A DNA stretch of 28,103 nt from a virus (IMGVR_UViG_2529292905_000015); one strand, 5' to 3'. Positions 18,511-23,075 are shown, counted from the first letter of the stretch. The notes: generated from the sequence alone by a model not told the origin. Made by a program: numbers and translations.

Positions 18511-19254
18511 ATGACCACGCCAAATCCACTGGCAAAGACGAAAGGTGCGGGGACGACGTTCTGGATGTATACCGGCAACGGCGATGCGTTTGCGAACCCT
18601 TTGTCGGACACTGACTGGCTGCGTCTTGCGATGGTGAAGGATCTGCAACCTGGCGAAATGACCGCTGATGCAGAAGATGACACTTATCTCGATGATGAAG
18701 ATGCAGACTGGAAAACGACAACCCAGGGGCAGAAATCCGTTGGTGATACTTCGGCGACGCTGGCCTGGCGTCCGGGTGACAGCGGGCAGAAAAAACTGGT
18801 TCAGTTGTTCGACTCCGGTGAAGTCTGCGCGTTTCGTATCAAATATCCCAACGGCACTGTTGATGTTTTCCGCGGCTGGCTGAGCTCACTGGGTAAAACC
18901 ATTGCCTCAAAAGACGTGATGACCCGCACAGTGAAAATCAGCGGTGTGGGGCGTCCATATCTGGCAGAGGAGGGCACTGAAACTGTGGGCGTTACCGGGC
19001 TGACGGTGGCACCGGCATCCGCCAGTGTCAATGTGGGAGCAACCACCACGCTGACCTTTACAGTAAAACCTGACGGAGCCAGTGACAAAGCGATCAGTGT
19101 GCATTCGACAGATCCACAGACAGCCACTGTGACCCTGAACGGACTTGTGGCCACGGTGAAAGGCGTGAAGCAGGGCAGCGTCAGCATTGTGGGCATGACC
19201 GCTGACGGGAATTTTGTGGCTGTGGCTGCGGTGACTGTCAGCGCTGCAGGTTAA
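18511..19254 (+). CDS. V: Major tail protein gpV with a C-terminal Ig-like (Big_2-type) domain
   Basis: AAGGAGGT Shine-Dalgarno before ATG 18511; N-terminal domain followed by a Thr/Val-rich Ig-like C-terminal region (…TVAPASASVNVGATTTLTFTVKPDGA…); followed by a strong terminator. Confidence 0.85.
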   Translation: MTTPNPLAKTKGAGTTFWMYTGNGDAFANPLSDTDWLRLAMVKDLQPGEMTADAEDDTYLDDEDADWKTTTQGQKSVGDTSATLAWRPGDSGQKKLVQLFDSGEVCAFRIKYPNGTVDVFRGWLSSLGKTIASKDVMTRTVKISGVGRPYLAEEGTETVGVTGLTVAPASASVNVGATTTLTFTVKPDGASDKAISVHSTDPQTATVTLNGLVATVKGVKQGSVSIVGMTADGNFVAVAAVTVSAAG

Positions 19255-19274
19255 CAGGACGATACTCATCATTT

Positions 19275-19298
19275 GCCCCGGTTATCCGGGGCTTTTTT
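19275..19298 (+). terminator. Intrinsic terminator GCCCCGG-TTAT-CCGGGGC followed by T6, directly after the major tail gene
   Basis: Perfect 7-bp GC stem and T6, read directly. Confidence 0.65.
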
Positions 19299-19311
19299 GC
19301 AGGTGGAGAAC

Positions 19312-19701
19312 ATGATGTTTCTGAAACAGGGCACGTTTAATTATGAAAAGCAGTCCGTGGTGCTCAGTGAGCTGTCCGGGCTGCAGAGAATTGAATATCT
19401 GGCGTTTGTTCAGCAGCGAACGGCAAAGTTTGATGCCGAAGAGGGAGAACTGCCGGAGGCTGAACGACAGATTGCTTTTCTGCGGATGGGGATGGATATC
19501 AATGCCTGGCTGGTTTCCCGCTCACTGTGGAATGCGGAACAGTCTCAGGATGTTGAGACGCTTTGCGCATCCGTTATTACAACATGGTCGTATGATGCCC
19601 TGAGAGCGGGGGCGGAGATGGTTCTGTCGCTGAGCGGTATGGGAGCCATTGAGAATGCCGGGGATTTGGAGCATGAGGTGCTGACGCCGGAAAAGTCCTG
19701 A
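19312..19701 (+). CDS. G: Tail assembly chaperone gpG
   Basis: MMFLKQGTFNYEKQSVVLSELSGLQRIEYLAF… parallels lambda gpG MFLKTESFEHNGVTVTLSELSALQRIEHLAL; AGGTGGAG Shine-Dalgarno. Confidence 0.8.
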   Translation: MMFLKQGTFNYEKQSVVLSELSGLQRIEYLAFVQQRTAKFDAEEGELPEAERQIAFLRMGMDINAWLVSRSLWNAEQSQDVETLCASVITTWSYDALRAGAEMVLSLSGMGAIENAGDLEHEVLTPEKS

Positions 19702-20039
19702 CGCGGGAAATGCAGTTTGTCATGCGGCTTGCCCGGGAGTTCCGGCGGGCAGACTGGCGGCGGATGCTGTCGGAAATGTCGGCCACTGAGCTTGGTGAGT
19801 GGGGCGATTATTTCCGGATGCAGAGCTTCAGTGATGTGTGGATGGATGCGCAGTTTGCCTCGCTGAAGGCATTGATCGTGAGAATGGTGTCCGGTAGCAG
19901 TGATGCTGCGGTGGCTGATTTCAGCCTTTTACCGGAAGAGAACGGGATACCGGAGCGAACGGACGAAGAACTGATGCATCTTGGGGAAGGTATTTCCGGA
20001 GGTGTGCGTTATGGACCAGATAGCCAACCTGGTCATTGA
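19677..20039 (+). CDS. T: gpT portion of the G-T tail assembly chaperone, expected to be expressed only as a -1 frameshift fusion from G
   Basis: The frame is open from 19677, -1 relative to G and overlapping its last codons; G/T frameshifting is conserved in lambda-like tail modules; candidate slip region GGAAAAG at 19689-19695. Confidence 0.65.
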   Translation, partial: GADAGKVLTREMQFVMRLAREFRRADWRRMLSEMSATELGEWGDYFRMQSFSDVWMDAQFASLKALIVRMVSGSSDAAVADFSLLPEENGIPERTDEELMHLGEGISGGVRYGPDSQPGH

Positions 20040-21963
20040 TTTGGGGATTGATGCGGCAGAGTTTAAAAATGAAATTCCCCGTATCAAAAACCTTCTGAAT
20101 GGTGCAGCCAGCGATGCAGAACGGTCTTCTGCCCGTATGCAGCGTTTTATGGAGCGTCAGACTCAGGCCGCCCGGCAGACAATGCAGGCGGCTTCTTCGG
20201 CTGCAACAGCCGCATCCGTCCATGCGCAGACGGTGGAGAAGAGCGCACAGGCTCATGAACGCATGGCCCGCGAGGTGGAGCAAACCCGCCAGCGTATGGA
20301 GGCACTGAGCCAGAAAATGCGCGAGGAACAGGCGCAGGCCATGGCTCTGGCGGAGGCTCAGGATAAAGCGGCTGCTGCGTTTTATCGTCAGATTGACAGT
20401 GTGAAACAGGCCGGTGCGGGGCTGCAGGAATTACAGCGTATTCAGCAACAGATCCGACAGGCCAGAAACAGTGGCGGGATTGGTCAGCAGGATTATCTGG
20501 CGCTGATTTCTGAGGTTACGGCGAAAACCCGTGTTCTTACACAGGCTGAGGAAGAGGCTACCCGACAGAAAGTGGCGTTTATCCGTCAGCTTAAAGAGCA
20601 GGCAACCCGCCAGAATCTTTCTTCTTCTGAGTTGCTTCGTGCTAAGGCTGCCCAGCTGGGGGTAAGCAGTGCTGCAGAAGTGTATATCCGCAAAATGGAG
20701 CAGGCAGGAAAAGCCACGCATTCGCTGGGTCTGAAAAGTGCAGCAGCCCGTCAGGAGATAGGCGTTCTGATAGGTGAACTGGCCCGCGGTAATTTAGGTG
20801 CGCTGAGGGGATCCGGAATAACGCTGGCTAACCGTGCCGGGTGGATAGACACACTGATGTCACCGAAAGGCATGATGCCAGGAGCGGTTATTGGCGGTAT
20901 TGCCGCGGCTGTCTATGGTCTGGGTAAAGCCTGGTATGACGGTCAGAAGGAGGGGGAAGAATTTAACCGCCAGCTGTCGCTGACGGGGCATTATGCCGGA
21001 GTCACTGCCGGGCAGCTGTGGACGCTCAGTCGTGCTATTTCCGGGAATGGTATCACGCAACATGCTGCAGCCGGTGCGCTGGCTCAGGTGGTGGGGAGTG
21101 GTGCATTTCGTGGAAACGATATCGGTATGGTGGCGAGAGCTGCCGCACAGATGGAGCGATCGGTTGGCCAGTCGGTCAGCGATACCATAAATCAGTTTAA
21201 GCGGCTGAAGGATGATCCTGTAAATGCCGCGAAGGCTCTGGACAATGAGCTGCATTTTCTTACTGCCACTCAGCTTGAGCAGATACGCGTCCTTGGGGAG
21301 CAGGGGCGGTCCAGTGATGCTGCACGGATAGCCATGTCTGCACTGGCAGAGGAAACCGGTCGGCGTACTGCGGATATTGATAATAACCTCAATGCGCTTG
21401 GCAGTACGCTGAAGTATCTGTCTGATTTGTGGAGTCGTTTCTGGGATGCGGCCATGAATATTGGTCGTGAAGACTCGCTGGATGAACAGATTGCCGCTTT
21501 ACAGGAGAAAGTGTCGCGGGCGAAAAGACTCCCCTGGACGGCATCATCTTCTCAGGTTGAATACGATCAGCAGCGTCTTAACGATCTTCAGGAGAAAAAA
21601 CGCCAGAAGGATTTGCAGGATGCAAAAGAGCAGGCAGAGCGGAATTATCAGGAGCAACAGAAACGCCGTAATGCTGAAAATGCTGCACTGAACCGGATGA
21701 ATGAAACGGAAGCAGCACGACATCAGCGTGAAATAGCGCGTATTAATGCCATGCAGTACGCCGATCAGGCTGTCAGGGATGCGGCGATACAACGTGAAAA
21801 TGAACGTTACGAGAAAGCCCTGGCATCCGGTAAGAAAAAACACGCGAACCCCGTAATGATGAGGCCACCCGGTTATTGCTGCAGTACAGTCAGCAACAGG
21901 CACAGGTGGAAGGACAGATTGCTGCTGCCAGACAGTCAGCAGGCATTGCCACGGAAAGGATGA
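20011..21963 (+). CDS. H: Tail tape measure protein gpH, N-terminal fragment (frame interrupted near 21835; remainder in the next feature)
   Basis: Coiled-coil-rich, Ala/Gln/Arg-rich sequence typical of tape measure proteins; GGAGGTG Shine-Dalgarno before ATG 20011; overlaps the T end as in lambda. After the A6 tract this frame reads only about 40 further codons (…ANPVMMRPPGYCCSTVSNRHRW…) before its stop. Confidence 0.8.
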   Translation: MDQIANLVIDLGIDAAEFKNEIPRIKNLLNGAASDAERSSARMQRFMERQTQAARQTMQAASSAATAASVHAQTVEKSAQAHERMAREVEQTRQRMEALSQKMREEQAQAMALAEAQDKAAAAFYRQIDSVKQAGAGLQELQRIQQQIRQARNSGGIGQQDYLALISEVTAKTRVLTQAEEEATRQKVAFIRQLKEQATRQNLSSSELLRAKAAQLGVSSAAEVYIRKMEQAGKATHSLGLKSAAARQEIGVLIGELARGNLGALRGSGITLANRAGWIDTLMSPKGMMPGAVIGGIAAAVYGLGKAWYDGQKEGEEFNRQLSLTGHYAGVTAGQLWTLSRAISGNGITQHAAAGALAQVVGSGAFRGNDIGMVARAAAQMERSVGQSVSDTINQFKRLKDDPVNAAKALDNELHFLTATQLEQIRVLGEQGRSSDAARIAMSALAEETGRRTADIDNNLNALGSTLKYLSDLWSRFWDAAMNIGREDSLDEQIAALQEKVSRAKRLPWTASSSQVEYDQQRLNDLQEKKRQKDLQDAKEQAERNYQEQQKRRNAENAALNRMNETEAARHQREIARINAMQYADQAVRDAAIQRENERYEKALASGKKKHANPVMMRPPGYCCSTVSNRHRWKDRLLLPDSQQALPRKG

Positions 21964-23075
21964 CAGAAGCGCATAAACAGCTTCTGGCTCTGCAGCAGCG
22001 CATCAGCGACCTGGACGGGAAAAAACTGACGGCAGATGAAAAGAGTGTGCTGGCCCGTAAAGATGAACTGATTCAGGCACTGACGCTGCTGGATGTAAAA
22101 CAGCAGGAGCTTCAGAAACAGACGGCACTCAACGAGCTGAAGAAAAAAACAATTCAGCTGACCAGTCAACTGGCTGAAGAAGAGCGCGCTCAGCGTCAGC
22201 AACATGACCTGGATATCGCCACGGTGGGTATGGGTGATCAGCAGCGACAGCGATATCAGGTACAACTGAGTCTTCGCCAGAAATACCAGCAACAGCTGGA
22301 GCAGTTGAGGCGGGATAGTGAGCAGAAAGGGACATATAACACGGATGACTACAGAAAGGCCGAGCAGGCGCTGACGGAGAGCCTGAACCGACAACTGAAT
22401 GAGAATCGCCGTTACTGGCAACAGCTTGAAGTTGTACAGGGTAACTGGAAAAACGGAGTCCTGCGTGCATTTCAGGATTTTACCGTGGATGCAGATAATA
22501 CGGCAGAAACAGCAGAACAGGTGTTCTCGTCAGCCTTCAGCAACATGGGAAATGGCCTGGCAACTTTTGTCACTACCGGCAAACTCAATTTCAAATCCTT
22601 CACCTCTTCTGTGCTGTCAGATATGGCGAAAATCCTGGCGCAGGCAACCATGATGAAATCGATAAAAGGGATTGGCAGTGTACTGGGATTTGATCTCAGC
22701 AGCCTTTCCCTGAATGCCAATGGGGGGATTTATCAGTCTGCTGATTTGAGTCGTTACAGTGGCACGGTGGTTAACCGTCCGACGTTTTTTGCTTTTGCAA
22801 AAGGCGCGGGTGTGATGGGGGAAGCGGGACCTGAAGCCATTCTGCCATTGCGTCGTGGTGCTGACGGTAAGCTGGGGGTTGTGGCGGATATTGGGGGTTC
22901 AGGTATGGCGATGTTTTCCCCGCAGTACAACATCGAGATCAATAACGATGGCACGAACGGGCAGATAGGTCCGGCTGCCCTGAAGGCGGTTTATGACCTC
23001 GGGAAAAAAGCGGCAGCGGACTTTATGCAACAGCAGGCCCGTGATGGTGGTCGGTTAAGTGGAGCATATCGGTAA
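21876..23075 (+). CDS. H: Tail tape measure protein gpH, C-terminal fragment (this frame is open from 21834)
   Basis: C-terminus …NIEINNDGTNGQIGPAALKAVYDLGKKAAADFMQQQARDGGRLSGAYR closely matches the lambda gpH C-terminus (…NNDGTNGQIGPAALKAVYDMARKGARDE…); stop overlaps the gpM start (TAATG). Confidence 0.8.
   Translation: MLQYSQQQAQVEGQIAAARQSAGIATERMTEAHKQLLALQQRISDLDGKKLTADEKSVLARKDELIQALTLLDVKQQELQKQTALNELKKKTIQLTSQLAEEERAQRQQHDLDIATVGMGDQQRQRYQVQLSLRQKYQQQLEQLRRDSEQKGTYNTDDYRKAEQALTESLNRQLNENRRYWQQLEVVQGNWKNGVLRAFQDFTVDADNTAETAEQVFSSAFSNMGNGLATFVTTGKLNFKSFTSSVLSDMAKILAQATMMKSIKGIGSVLGFDLSSLSLNANGGIYQSADLSRYSGTVVNRPTFFAFAKGAGVMGEAGPEAILPLRRGADGKLGVVADIGGSGMAMFSPQYNIEINNDGTNGQIGPAALKAVYDLGKKAAADFMQQQARDGGRLSGAYR

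What the first reader, a model, noticed from the sequence alone, without database searches (positions are those of the whole stretch)
19677..19701. G-T tail chaperone frameshift window is only about 24 nt and lacks the canonical GGGAAAG heptamer
The T frame opens at 19677 (just after a TGA in that frame) and the G stop is at 19699-19701, so a -1 shift must occur within CTGACGCCGGAAAAGTCC. The best candidate is GGAAAAG (19689-19695) rather than the lambda G GGA AAG motif. Either frameshifting uses a variant slippery site, or its efficiency differs from lambda.
Basis: partly seen in the sequence, partly recalled or inferred. Interest (0 to 1): 0.4.

Follow-up and report, generated by a model that had tools for sequence, protein, structure and literature searches.

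The report
Variant slippery site in phage tail chaperone
This E. coli lambda-like prophage almost certainly makes its G-T tail-assembly fusion protein by a -1 ribosomal slip on GGAAAAG rather than lambda's GGGAAAG, and this non-textbook site is conserved and was the commonest one in the lambda-type tail chaperone genes sampled here.

Summary
G (19312-19701) ends at TGA 19699-19701. The -1 (T) frame opens at 19677, after TGA 19674-19676. The 25-nt overlap holds no GGGAAAG and a single in-phase shift candidate, G_GAA_AAG (19689-19695).

The window is a lambdoid prophage, about 99% identical to phages Ayreon, mEp460 and cdtI. This G/T module occurs in 1,847 of 5,426 complete E. coli genomes.

I compared 355 related loci, which fall into 34 sequence clusters. 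At the homologous position:
- 22 clusters have G_GAA_AAG.
- 7 have G_GGA_AAG.
- 2 have A_AAA_AAG.
- 3 have rare variants.

The evidence that this heptamer is the shift site:
- The base before GAA is G in 23 of 24 GAA-type clusters. It is a synonymous third-codon position and the most conserved of 22 such sites.
- In some relatives the -1 frame opens only 3 nt before the heptamer.
- T-frame protein conservation starts right after the heptamer, and there is no conserved start codon.

Best explanation: tandem -1 slippage, tRNA-Lys AAG to AAA and tRNA-Glu GAA to GGA with a middle G·U pair, giving a 242-aa GT protein.

I found no conserved downstream structure. An SD-like GAGGTG lies 8 nt upstream, but its role is unproven. 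Efficiency is unknown. This is a non-canonical variant of a known mechanism, of moderate interest.

The parts
18511..19254 (+). Major tail tube protein gene (lambda V homologue with a C-terminal Ig-like domain), directly upstream of G
   Evidence: Pfam Phage_TTP_12 6e-67 and Big_2 2e-11. ATG at 18511 is preceded by AAGGAGG. Relatives annotate a 744-nt major tail protein CDS here.
19275..19298 (+). Intrinsic-terminator-like hairpin plus T-run between V and G
   Evidence: 7 G-C pairs, GCCCCGG-TTAT-CCGGGGC followed by TTTTTT. Annotated as a terminator in phages Ayreon and mEp460.
19312..19701 (+). G, the tail assembly chaperone (zero frame), 129 aa, ending ...EVLTPEKS*
   Evidence: Translation. 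Pfam Phage_TAC_2 3.2e-39. Annotated as G, gpG or tail chaperone in relatives.
19674..19676 (+). TGA in the -1 frame, the upstream limit of the shift window
   Evidence: Conserved throughout the window's own clade, where the -1 frame always opens 12 nt before the heptamer.
19675..19680 (+). SD-like GAGGTG, 8 nt upstream of the heptamer; a possible but unproven stimulator
   Evidence: Predicted duplex with the 16S 3' end is -9.2 kcal/mol, at the 5th percentile of in-gene control positions. GAGG is present in all 142 loci of the clade. Across the family the enrichment is not position-specific.
19689..19695 (+). Proposed shift site G_GAA_AAG (P-site codon GAA, A-site codon AAG)
   Evidence: Only in-phase slip candidate in the overlap. 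Conserved at the homologous position in 22 of 34 clusters. Heptamer position 1 is the most conserved synonymous site of 22. The window narrows to 16 nt in L154.
19699..19701 (+). G stop codon (TGA), one codon after the heptamer; the downstream limit of the shift window
19695..20039 (+). T segment (-1 frame), translated only after the shift: 114 aa, VLTREMQFVMRLAREFRR...GPDSQPGH*. Predicted GT fusion is 242 aa with junction ...LTPEK|VLTRE...
   Evidence: Translations. Pfam Phage_tail_T 5e-15. T-frame conservation starts at the first codon after the heptamer, and no start codon is conserved.
20011..23075 (+). Tape measure gene (lambda H homologue), overlapping the end of T. Here it is interrupted by a 1-nt deletion in an A-run (21835-21840).
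   Evidence: Pfam TMP_2, TMP_4 and Tape_meas_lam_C on the two pieces. Alignment to the intact 3,066-nt gene of E. coli O157 Z910 shows a single gap.

Best explanation
The element is the G/GT tail-assembly-chaperone recoding site of a lambda-like siphophage.

Most ribosomes read G to its stop at 19699 and make the 129-aa chaperone. A minority slip back one base on G_GAA_AAG (19689-19695) and continue in the T frame, making a 242-aa G-T fusion with junction ...LTPEK|VLTRE....

How the slip most likely works:
- GAA sits in the P site and AAG in the A site.
- tRNA-Lys re-pairs perfectly from AAG to AAA.
- tRNA-Glu (anticodon mnm5s2U-U-C) re-pairs from GAA to GGA. It keeps the first and third pairs and forms a G·U pair in the middle.
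- This is therefore a near-cognate version of lambda's G_GGA_AAG, one G-to-A transition away from it.

No RNA structure appears to be needed, as in lambda.

Shown here: the geometry, the homology, the conservation of the heptamer and of its synonymous positions, and the start of T-frame coding constraint right after it.

Inferred: that the slip happens, that both tRNAs re-pair, and that the efficiency is low, at a few percent or less.
For: **Geometry**
- The -1 frame is open only from 19677, and G stops at 19699.
- G_GAA_AAG is the only re-pairable site in between.

**Homology and synteny**
- The order is V, then G (Phage_TAC_2), then -1-frame T (Phage_tail_T), then tape measure.

**Conserved island**
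- The window, Gifsy-1, Gifsy-2 and Fels-1 share ACR CCG GAA AAG YCC TGA.
- The preceding ~25 codons of G are unalignable among them.

**Family-wide sample**
- 355 loci gave 157 unique junctions and 34 clusters.
- At the site homologous to lambda's experimentally mapped heptamer: G_GAA_AAG 22 clusters, G_GGA_AAG 7, A_AAA_AAG 2, rare variants 3.

**Position 1 tracks the P-site codon**
- It is G before GAA and GGA, and A before AAA (26 of 27 clusters).
- It is G in 23 of 24 GAA-type clusters, in codons CCG, GCG, ACG, GTG and CTG.
- It is synonymous in the zero frame and untranslated in the -1 frame.
- In 21 control four-fold-degenerate columns, the commonest third base averages 0.52 (range 0.33-0.83), against 0.89 at this position.

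**Codon choice within the heptamer**
- GAA is never GAG, and the A-site Lys codon is AAG, not AAA, in all but one GAA-type cluster (L207).
- This is despite E. coli usage of 0.69/0.31 for GAA/GAG and 0.76/0.24 for AAA/AAG (PMC3296357).

**Comparative mapping**
- The -1 frame opens 3 nt before the heptamer in L134, L136 and L154.
- In L154 the whole permitted window is 16 nt, A GCG GAA AAG CGC TAG.

**T-frame coding signal**
- The T-frame peptide is conserved from the first codon after the heptamer: [VA][LF]xxELxF[VA][ML][KR]LAREF.
- The only Met before LAREF is absent in 11 of 27 clusters.

**Plausibility from the literature**
- A single A·U to G·U change in the P site costs about 5 kJ/mol and still allows substantial slippage (PMC6787027).
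- G:U-assisted GAA to GGA re-pairing has been proposed for other phage chaperone sites (PMC10885494).
- Lambda needs only about 4% frameshifting (PMC3296357; PMC5009743).
Against: - No experiment on this sequence in its context was found.
- In a reconstituted E. coli system, AUG GAA AAG gave mainly zero-frame product. [quoted passage not shown]
- Bare A_AAG without a stimulator is close to background in vivo, 0.147% against 0.112% (PMC4066793).
- No downstream structure was found that could compensate.
- Rare relatives with A_GAA_AAG (L155), G_GCA_AAG (L169) and G_GCA_AAA (L215) show that full P-site re-pairing is not obligatory.
- The clusters are not phylogenetically independent.
- Sampling was steered by the query order, so the 22:7:2 ratio is not an unbiased frequency.
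- This particular prophage has a broken tape measure gene, so the site may not currently serve a viable phage.
Confidence: 0.8

Rival explanations
1. Single-tRNA slippage: only tRNA-Lys slips on A_AAG, and the P-site tRNA-Glu does not re-pair. The site would then belong with the NNA_AAG hexanucleotide sites such as IS1222 and B. subtilis cdd.
For: - A_AAG is the only feature shared by nearly all family variants; two rare variants have A_AAA instead.
- Variants whose P-site codon cannot re-pair well exist: G_GCA_AAG in L169, A_GAA_AAG in L155 and G_GCA_AAA in L215.
- A_AAG precedents are listed in PMC5009743.
Against: - Heptamer position 1 is G in 23 of 24 GAA-type clusters and A before AAA, although it is a synonymous third position. 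A pure A-site slip gives no reason for this.
- Under the hexanucleotide model, efficiency rises with the wobble propensity of the P-site tRNA. My own knowledge is that tRNA-Glu, with mnm5s2U34, is a restricted reader, so GAA would be a poor choice. Yet it is the commonest P-site codon.
- A_AAG alone is close to background without a strong stimulator, and none was found.
Confidence: 0.2
2. dnaX-like stimulated frameshifting: the weak heptamer depends on the upstream SD-like GAGGTG (19675-19680) pairing with 16S rRNA to reach a useful level.
For: - GAGGTG gives a predicted -9.2 kcal/mol duplex, at the 5th percentile of in-gene controls.
- It lies 8 nt before the heptamer, inside the 6-17 nt range used for SD stimulators (PMC4066793).
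- GAGG is present in all 142 loci of the clade.
- GAA-type clusters have stronger upstream anti-SD complementarity than canonical ones: mean -4.5 against -2.0 kcal/mol, Mann-Whitney p = 0.014, and 11 of 24 against 0 of 9 at or below -5.5.
Against: - Many GAA-type clusters have no such element, for example L158, L128 and L135.
- The positional profile shows equally strong peaks at irrelevant spacings of 21-22 and 39-40 nt. The signal therefore looks like a by-product of the GAG/GAA-rich acidic tail of G.
- The canonical group is small and dominated by close lambda relatives.
Confidence: 0.25
3. No frameshift: T is translated on its own from ATG 19710, as GenBank and RefSeq records annotate it.
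For: - Relatives annotate a separate T CDS starting at the equivalent ATG.
- A weak GGGA lies 3 nt before that ATG.
Against: - That ATG is CTG or CTT in Gifsy-1, Fels-1 and Gifsy-2.
- No start codon between the heptamer and LAREF is conserved. The only Met there is present in 16 of 27 clusters.
- The residues before that Met (E, L and an invariant F) are conserved as protein.
- The -1 overlap with a conserved slip site is maintained in all 355 loci.
- Lambda's T is made only as a GT fusion (PMC5009743).
Confidence: 0.04
4. Relic: in this particular prophage the tail module is decaying, since the tape measure gene is frameshifted. The site would then be inherited sequence with no present function.
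For: - The tape measure gene has a 1-nt deletion. The A-run is A6 here, against A7 in at least 120 IMG/VR contigs and in O157 Z910.
Against: - The G/T junction is base-for-base identical to that of plaque-forming phages such as Ayreon, and to most of the 142 clade loci.
- The single-base difference in a homopolymer may be a sequencing error.
- This rival concerns present use, not what the site is.
Confidence: 0.15

Closest known systems
Phage lambda G/GT programmed -1 frameshift at G_GGA_AAG (Levin, Hendrix and Casjens 1993; Xu, Hendrix and Duda 2004, 2013, 2014, as cited in PMC5009743)
   Same: - Same gene order: V, G, T, H.
- Same protein families (Phage_TAC_2, Phage_tail_T).
- Same -1 direction and the same A-site codon, AAG.
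- Shift site at the homologous codon pair.
- The T-frame peptide after the site aligns (VLTRE... against VFDGE...).
- No evident downstream structure.
   Different: - The P-site codon is GAA (Glu), not GGA (Gly). The heptamer breaks the X_XXY_YYZ rule, and P-site re-pairing needs a middle-position G·U.
- The zero-frame stop is 1 codon after the heptamer, against 5 in lambda.
- The permitted window is 25 nt, against 64 nt in lambda.
A_AAA_AAG heptamer, as in E. coli dnaX and in some lambda-family G/T genes sampled here (L180 and L163 clusters)
   Same: - -1 slip with tRNA-Lys on AAG in the A site.
- An SD-like element sits at a dnaX-like distance in the window.
   Different: - dnaX uses two tRNA-Lys that re-pair perfectly, plus a downstream hairpin, and reaches about 50%.
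- Here no hairpin was found, and the SD-like element is not conserved across the family.
NNA_AAG hexanucleotide / A_AAG tetranucleotide sites (IS1222 G_CGA_AAG and B. subtilis cdd A_CGA_AAG; PMC5009743)
   Same: - The A_AAG core.
- The P-site codon is not of the XXY type.
   Different: - In those sites the P-site tRNA is thought not to re-pair.
- Here the base before the P-site codon is conserved as G, which points to first-position re-pairing of tRNA-Glu on GGA.
Hypothetical 'twofour' (XXYYYY) and G:U-assisted motifs, read from annotated actinophage chaperone frameshifts by the PRFect authors (PMC10885494)
   Same: - GGAAAA fits an XXYYYY pattern.
- That paper notes GAA to GGA re-pairing through G:U.
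   Different: - Those motifs were hand-picked from unverified annotations in other phage groups, without phase or conservation tests.
- GGAAAAG itself is not mentioned there.
G GAA AAG model mRNA of Peng et al. 2019 (PMC6924986)
   Same: Identical heptamer, read by the same E. coli tRNAs.
   Different: There it was a synthetic low-slippage control placed right after the start codon. Here it is a naturally conserved site at the end of a 128-codon ORF.
Dianthovirus G_GAU_UUU shift site (red clover necrotic mosaic virus). Recalled from memory, not checked here.
   Same: A natural -1 heptamer of the form G_GAN_NNN, whose P-site tRNA must accept a second-position mismatch.
   Different: It is a eukaryotic plant virus, it depends on a downstream structure, and it uses different tRNAs.

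Membership tests
Lambda-type G/GT tail assembly chaperone with programmed -1 frameshift | Two overlapping ORFs located between the major tail protein gene and the tape measure gene | tested here: met
   V 18511-19254, G 19312-19701, T frame 19677-20039, H from 20011. Relatives have the same order.
Lambda-type G/GT tail assembly chaperone with programmed -1 frameshift | The upstream ORF is a homologue of lambda G | tested here: met
   Pfam PF06894 Phage_TAC_2, E = 3.2e-39. 34% identity to lambda G in the alignment.
Lambda-type G/GT tail assembly chaperone with programmed -1 frameshift | The downstream ORF is in the -1 frame, is homologous to lambda T, and lacks a conserved initiation site of its own | tested here: met
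   PF06223 Phage_tail_T, E = 5e-15. -1 relation confirmed. No conserved start, and coding conservation begins right after the heptamer.
Lambda-type G/GT tail assembly chaperone with programmed -1 frameshift | A canonical X_XXY_YYZ slippery heptamer in the overlap | tested here: not met
   The overlap contains G_GAA_AAG. Positions 1-3 are G, G, A, not identical. No GGGAAAG lies near G/T.
Lambda-type G/GT tail assembly chaperone with programmed -1 frameshift | A GT fusion protein is made at a low ratio to G and is needed for tail assembly | not testable with these tools
   Supported only indirectly, by the conservation pattern and by the existence of isolated phages with the same junction.
A_AAG / NNA_AAG single-tRNA -1 shift sites | Zero-frame AAG preceded by A, so that tRNA-Lys can re-pair on AAA | tested here: met
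   GAA AAG at 19690-19695. An A_AAG core is present in 353 of 355 loci; the other two have A_AAA.
A_AAG / NNA_AAG single-tRNA -1 shift sites | The P-site tRNA does not re-pair, so bases upstream of the P-site codon are unconstrained | tested here: not met
   The base before GAA is G in 23 of 24 GAA-type clusters and covaries with the first base of the P-site codon.
dnaX-type stimulated -1 frameshift | An SD-like sequence 6-17 nt upstream of the heptamer | tested here: inconclusive
   Present in the window: GAGGTG, -9.2 kcal/mol, 8 nt upstream. Enriched in GAA-type clusters (p = 0.014), but not position-specific.
dnaX-type stimulated -1 frameshift | A stable hairpin or pseudoknot starting 5-9 nt downstream of the heptamer | tested here: not met
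   The minimum-free-energy fold of 19696-19790 has a z-score of -0.89. The consensus fold has a positive covariation term (+1.47 kcal/mol) and broken pairs. No Rfam match.

The most novel reading that the evidence does not exclude
G_GAA_AAG may be more than a tolerated degenerate copy of lambda's site. It could be a separately tuned class of bacterial -1 shift site, the predominant one in lambda-family tail chaperone genes.

In this class both slipping tRNAs (Glu and Lys) carry mnm5s2U34, and the P-site tRNA re-pairs through a second-position G·U. If so, it would set a different G:GT ratio from lambda. It would also tie that ratio more tightly to the host's tRNA 2-thiolation state (the Tus/MnmA/IscS network shown to control lambda's ratio), in some lineages with help from an upstream SD-like sequence.
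Probability: 0.3. Interest if true: 0.55.

Novelty: new variant of a known kind. Interest (0 to 1): 0.4.

Why it matters
**Textbook rule.** The G-T frameshift of lambda is the textbook bacterial example of tandem slippage on X_XXY_YYZ. This analysis indicates that many lambda-type phages use a heptamer that breaks that rule. They include a prophage module present in about a third of complete E. coli genomes, and the Salmonella phages Gifsy-1, Gifsy-2 and Fels-1. The only paper found that uses this heptamer employed it as a low-slippage control.

**Annotation.** Motif-based frameshift finders that demand XXXYYYZ will miss this site. GenBank and RefSeq records split G and T into two genes, with T starting at a non-conserved ATG.

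**Mechanism.** The family gives a natural series for measuring how P-site re-pairing sets frameshift efficiency and the chaperone ratio: G_GGA, G_GAA, A_AAA, G_GCA and A_GAA before AAG. It also allows a test of whether the ratio depends on tRNA thiolation.

**Scale.** This does not reveal a new kind of system.

Tried and rejected
**Downstream stimulatory RNA structure**
- A single-sequence fold of 19696-19790 is no better than shuffles (z = -0.89).
- The consensus fold of six diverged relatives shows no supporting covariation.
- That fold pairs CGCCGGAA (19685-19692) with TTCCGGCG (19740-19747), but the pairing is broken in Fels-1 and Citrobacter. The 3' arm is the conserved REFRR coding motif.

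**Rfam**
- A permissive E-value search of 19200-20100 found only a meaningless E = 0.81 hit to a human lncRNA family.

**SD-like stimulator as a family feature**
- The first test was not significant (p = 0.135).
- The enlarged set gave p = 0.014.
- The positional profile showed similar peaks at irrelevant spacings, so I do not claim it.

**Other slip sites in the overlap**
- None of GTG, CTG, ACG, CCG or TCC can re-pair one base back (read).

**Transcriptional slippage**
- The run is only four A's. Known cases need much longer runs (A more than 7, T more than 8; PMC3711429). I rejected this on that basis.

**Literature**
- Searches for GGAAAAG or 'G GAA AAG' with frameshift, phage or tail found no description of this heptamer as a phage shift site.
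- Xu et al. 2004 and Licznar et al. 2003 are not held. I could not check whether their tables list it.
- One search failed on a term that was too short, and another found nothing.

**First viral scan**

Full report
**Observation**

- G runs from ATG 19312 (a second ATG is at 19315) to TGA 19699-19701.
- The -1 frame carries TGA at 19674-19676. It is then open from 19677 to TGA 20037-20039.
- The overlap is GGTGCTGACGCCGGAAAAGTCCTGA, 25 nt including the stop codon.
- The zero-frame codons are GTG CTG ACG CCG GAA AAG TCC TGA, so GGAAAAG (19689-19695) is in phase as G_GAA_AAG.
- No GGGAAAG lies anywhere near.
- The 7-mer itself is not rare in the window, with 7 copies against 3.7 expected. Its significance comes from its phase and place, not its presence.
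- No other codon in the overlap can re-pair one base back.

**What the region is**

The upstream ORF matches Pfam Phage_TAC_2 (lambda G) at 3e-39, and the -1 ORF matches Phage_tail_T at 5e-15. They are flanked by a lambda-V-type tail tube gene with an Ig-like domain and by a tape measure gene.

The DNA is 97-99.7% identical to phages Ayreon, mEp460, cdtI, Tritos, HannyBb and others. The same module occurs in 1,847 of 5,426 complete E. coli genomes.

None of the GenBank or RefSeq records joins G and T. T is annotated as a separate gene from an internal ATG. The Gifsy-1 and Gifsy-2 records do say in words that T is made by frameshifting from G.

**Comparison with relatives**

Eighty-three near-identical IMG/VR and GenBank copies carry the identical junction, which says little on its own.

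Gifsy-1, Gifsy-2 and Fels-1 are more informative. They have 56%, 56% and 54% protein identity in G, and Gifsy-1 and Fels-1 have about 70% and 67% DNA identity over G-T. They share ACR CCG GAA AAG YCC TGA with the window, although the ~25 codons before it cannot be aligned among them. Lambda has GCG GGA AAG at the homologous spot.

I widened the sample with alignment-based scans of species-representative genomes, viral contigs and metagenomes. That gave 355 loci, 157 distinct junction contexts and 34 clusters at 85% identity over the last 115 residues of G. At the homologous codon pair:

| Heptamer | Clusters |
|---|---|
| G_GAA_AAG | 22 |
| G_GGA_AAG | 7 |
| A_AAA_AAG | 2 |
| A_GAA_AAG | 1 |
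| G_GAA_AAA followed directly by TAG | 1 |
| G_GCA_AAA followed directly by TAG | 1 |

One further locus inside a G_GAA_AAG cluster has G_GCA_AAG.

The ratio is not an unbiased census, because each scan kept the 80 loci closest to the first query sequence. However, the species-representative genome scan kept everything it found and gave about six G_GAA_AAG lineages to three G_GGA_AAG lineages.

**Evidence that the heptamer is the shift site**

1. *Comparative mapping.* In L134, L136 and L154 the -1 frame opens only 3 nt before the heptamer. In the window type the zero-frame stop follows one codon after it. In L154 both limits apply, and the whole permitted window is 16 nt, A GCG GAA AAG CGC TAG.
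2. *Start of T-frame coding.* The T-frame peptide is conserved from the very first codon after the heptamer, [VA][LF]xxELxF[VA][ML][KR]LAREF. T-frame sequence before the heptamer is not conserved. The only Met before LAREF is missing in 11 of 27 clusters. The ATG at 19710 that annotators use is CTG or CTT in Gifsy-1, Fels-1 and Gifsy-2.
3. *Synonymous-site conservation.* GAA is never GAG, and the A-site Lys codon is AAG, not AAA, in all but one cluster, despite E. coli usage of 0.69/0.31 and 0.76/0.24. The final G is also the first base of a conserved Val or Ala codon in the T frame, so that position is not independent evidence.
4. *Heptamer position 1.* The base before the P-site codon is the third base of a Pro, Ala, Thr, Val or Leu codon, and it is not translated in the -1 frame. 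It is G in 23 of 24 GAA-type clusters, G before GGA and A before AAA. Among 22 four-fold-degenerate columns of the G alignment, this is the most conserved third position. It scores 0.89, against a mean of 0.52 and a range of 0.33-0.83 for the others, and two of its three exceptions are the A_AAA_AAG clusters.

**Mechanism**

The pattern fits tandem slippage.
- A-site tRNA-Lys moves from AAG to AAA, a better pair.
- P-site tRNA-Glu moves from GAA to GGA. It keeps G:C at the first position, which explains the conserved G. It keeps A:U34 at the third position and accepts G·U in the middle.
- The site is one G-to-A transition from lambda's. Near-twin tails such as Serratia ...TPGKS* (CCG GGA AAG TCT TAG) and Gifsy-1 ...TPEKS* (CCG GAA AAG TCC TGA) show both states in otherwise similar contexts.

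The literature makes this plausible.
- A single A·U to G·U change in the P site costs about 5 kJ/mol and still allows high slippage in the dnaX context (PMC6787027).
- The PRFect authors noted GAA to GGA re-pairing through G:U and listed a hypothetical XXYYYY motif class (PMC10885494).
- Lambda needs only about 4% shifting, a 30:1 ratio of G to GT.

Other data argue against high efficiency.
- Peng et al. used exactly G GAA AAG as their less slippery mRNA and saw mainly zero-frame product.
- Bare A_AAG is near background without a strong stimulator.

I therefore infer a low efficiency, perhaps below lambda's, but this is untested.

The rare variants A_GAA_AAG, G_GCA_AAG and G_GCA_AAA show that full P-site re-pairing is preferred rather than obligatory. 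This keeps the A-site-only model alive as a minority view.

**Stimulators**

*Downstream.* The fold of 19696-19790 is unremarkable (z = -0.89). The consensus fold of six diverged relatives has a positive covariation term (+1.47 kcal/mol) and broken pairs. Rfam has nothing.

*Upstream.* The window has GAGGTG at 19675-19680, 8 nt before the heptamer.
- It has a predicted -9.2 kcal/mol duplex with the 16S 3' end, at the 5th percentile of in-gene positions.
- It lies within the 6-17 nt range used for such stimulators.
- GAGG is present in all 142 clade members.
- GAA-type clusters have stronger upstream complementarity than canonical ones (p = 0.014).
- However, the positional profile has equal peaks at 21-22 and 39-40 nt, and several clusters lack any match.

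I treat this as a possible local helper, not a family feature.

**Rivals**
- Independent initiation of T is contradicted by the lack of a conserved start and by coding conservation upstream of the only candidate Met.
- I rejected transcriptional slippage on four A's, because known cases need much longer runs.
- The prophage in the window may be defective, because its tape measure gene has lost one A from an A7 run. That concerns present use, not the nature of the site.

**Comparison with what is known, and novelty**

The system is a member of the lambda G/GT family on every tested feature except the canonical heptamer. In mechanism it lies between the classic X_XXY_YYZ sites and the NNA_AAG sites.

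I found no paper in the held library that describes G_GAA_AAG as a natural shift site. Xu et al. 2004 and Licznar et al. 2003 could not be read, so earlier mention cannot be excluded.

I rate it a new variant of a known kind and of moderate interest. It matters for annotation and motif-based prediction. It also offers a natural allelic series for studying P-site re-pairing.

A further point follows from Maynard et al. [quoted passage not shown] On G_GAA_AAG both slipping tRNAs carry that modification. The ratio in these phages might therefore be more sensitive to host tRNA thiolation. This is a speculation that a simple reporter experiment can test.

Noticed in passing
window 21835-21840 (within the tape measure gene, 20011-23075): The tape measure gene is split into a 650-codon piece and a 399-codon ORF by loss of one A from a homopolymer. 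The window has GGTAAG-AAAAAA-CACG (A6). E. coli O157 Z910 and at least 120 IMG/VR contigs have A7, and only 2 IMG/VR contigs share A6. This is either a real inactivating mutation in a decaying prophage or a homopolymer sequencing error.
   Followed up: partly
window 19275-19298: A strong terminator-like hairpin (7 G-C pairs plus T6) lies between the major tail gene V and G. Phages Ayreon and mEp460 annotate it as a terminator. It could lower G/T/H transcription relative to V.
   Followed up: partly
window 19710-20039 and its equivalents in GenBank and RefSeq records (L001-L003, L205): Public annotations, including RefSeq's, list T as a free-standing CDS starting at a non-conserved ATG. They do not join it to G. 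The module is present in 1,847 complete E. coli genomes, and the GT protein was missing from the 12 E. coli records listed and the three phage records inspected.
   Followed up: partly
window 19685-19692 and 19740-19747: CGCCGGAA, which covers the 5' half of the heptamer, is perfectly complementary to TTCCGGCG about 50 nt downstream. The pairing is broken in Fels-1 and a Citrobacter prophage. The 3' arm encodes the conserved REFRR motif, so the match is probably coincidental.
   Followed up: partly
L155 (about 1386-1392), L169, L207, L215: Rare natural variants occur at the homologous shift site: A_GAA_AAG, G_GCA_AAG, and two lineages with G_GAA_AAA or G_GCA_AAA followed immediately by TAG. 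They form a natural mutational series for the P-site and A-site codons.
   Followed up: no
L106-L118, L120-L124 (GTDB genome contigs): Lambda-identical G sequences appear on short, roughly 1x-coverage contigs in assemblies of unrelated organisms, including Kitasatospora, Shewanella, Pseudomonas, Bradyrhizobium, Enterococcus and Leeuwenhoekiella. This looks like lambda DNA contamination or spike-in rather than real prophages.
   Followed up: no
family-wide: heptamer to G stop distance: The zero-frame stop lies either exactly 1 codon or exactly 5 codons after the heptamer (0 in the two AAA-TAG lineages). Both architectures occur with G_GAA_AAG and with G_GGA_AAG. The 5-codon tails end in a conserved ...S/P-x-A/V-S* motif. 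This two-state arrangement is unexplained.
   Followed up: no
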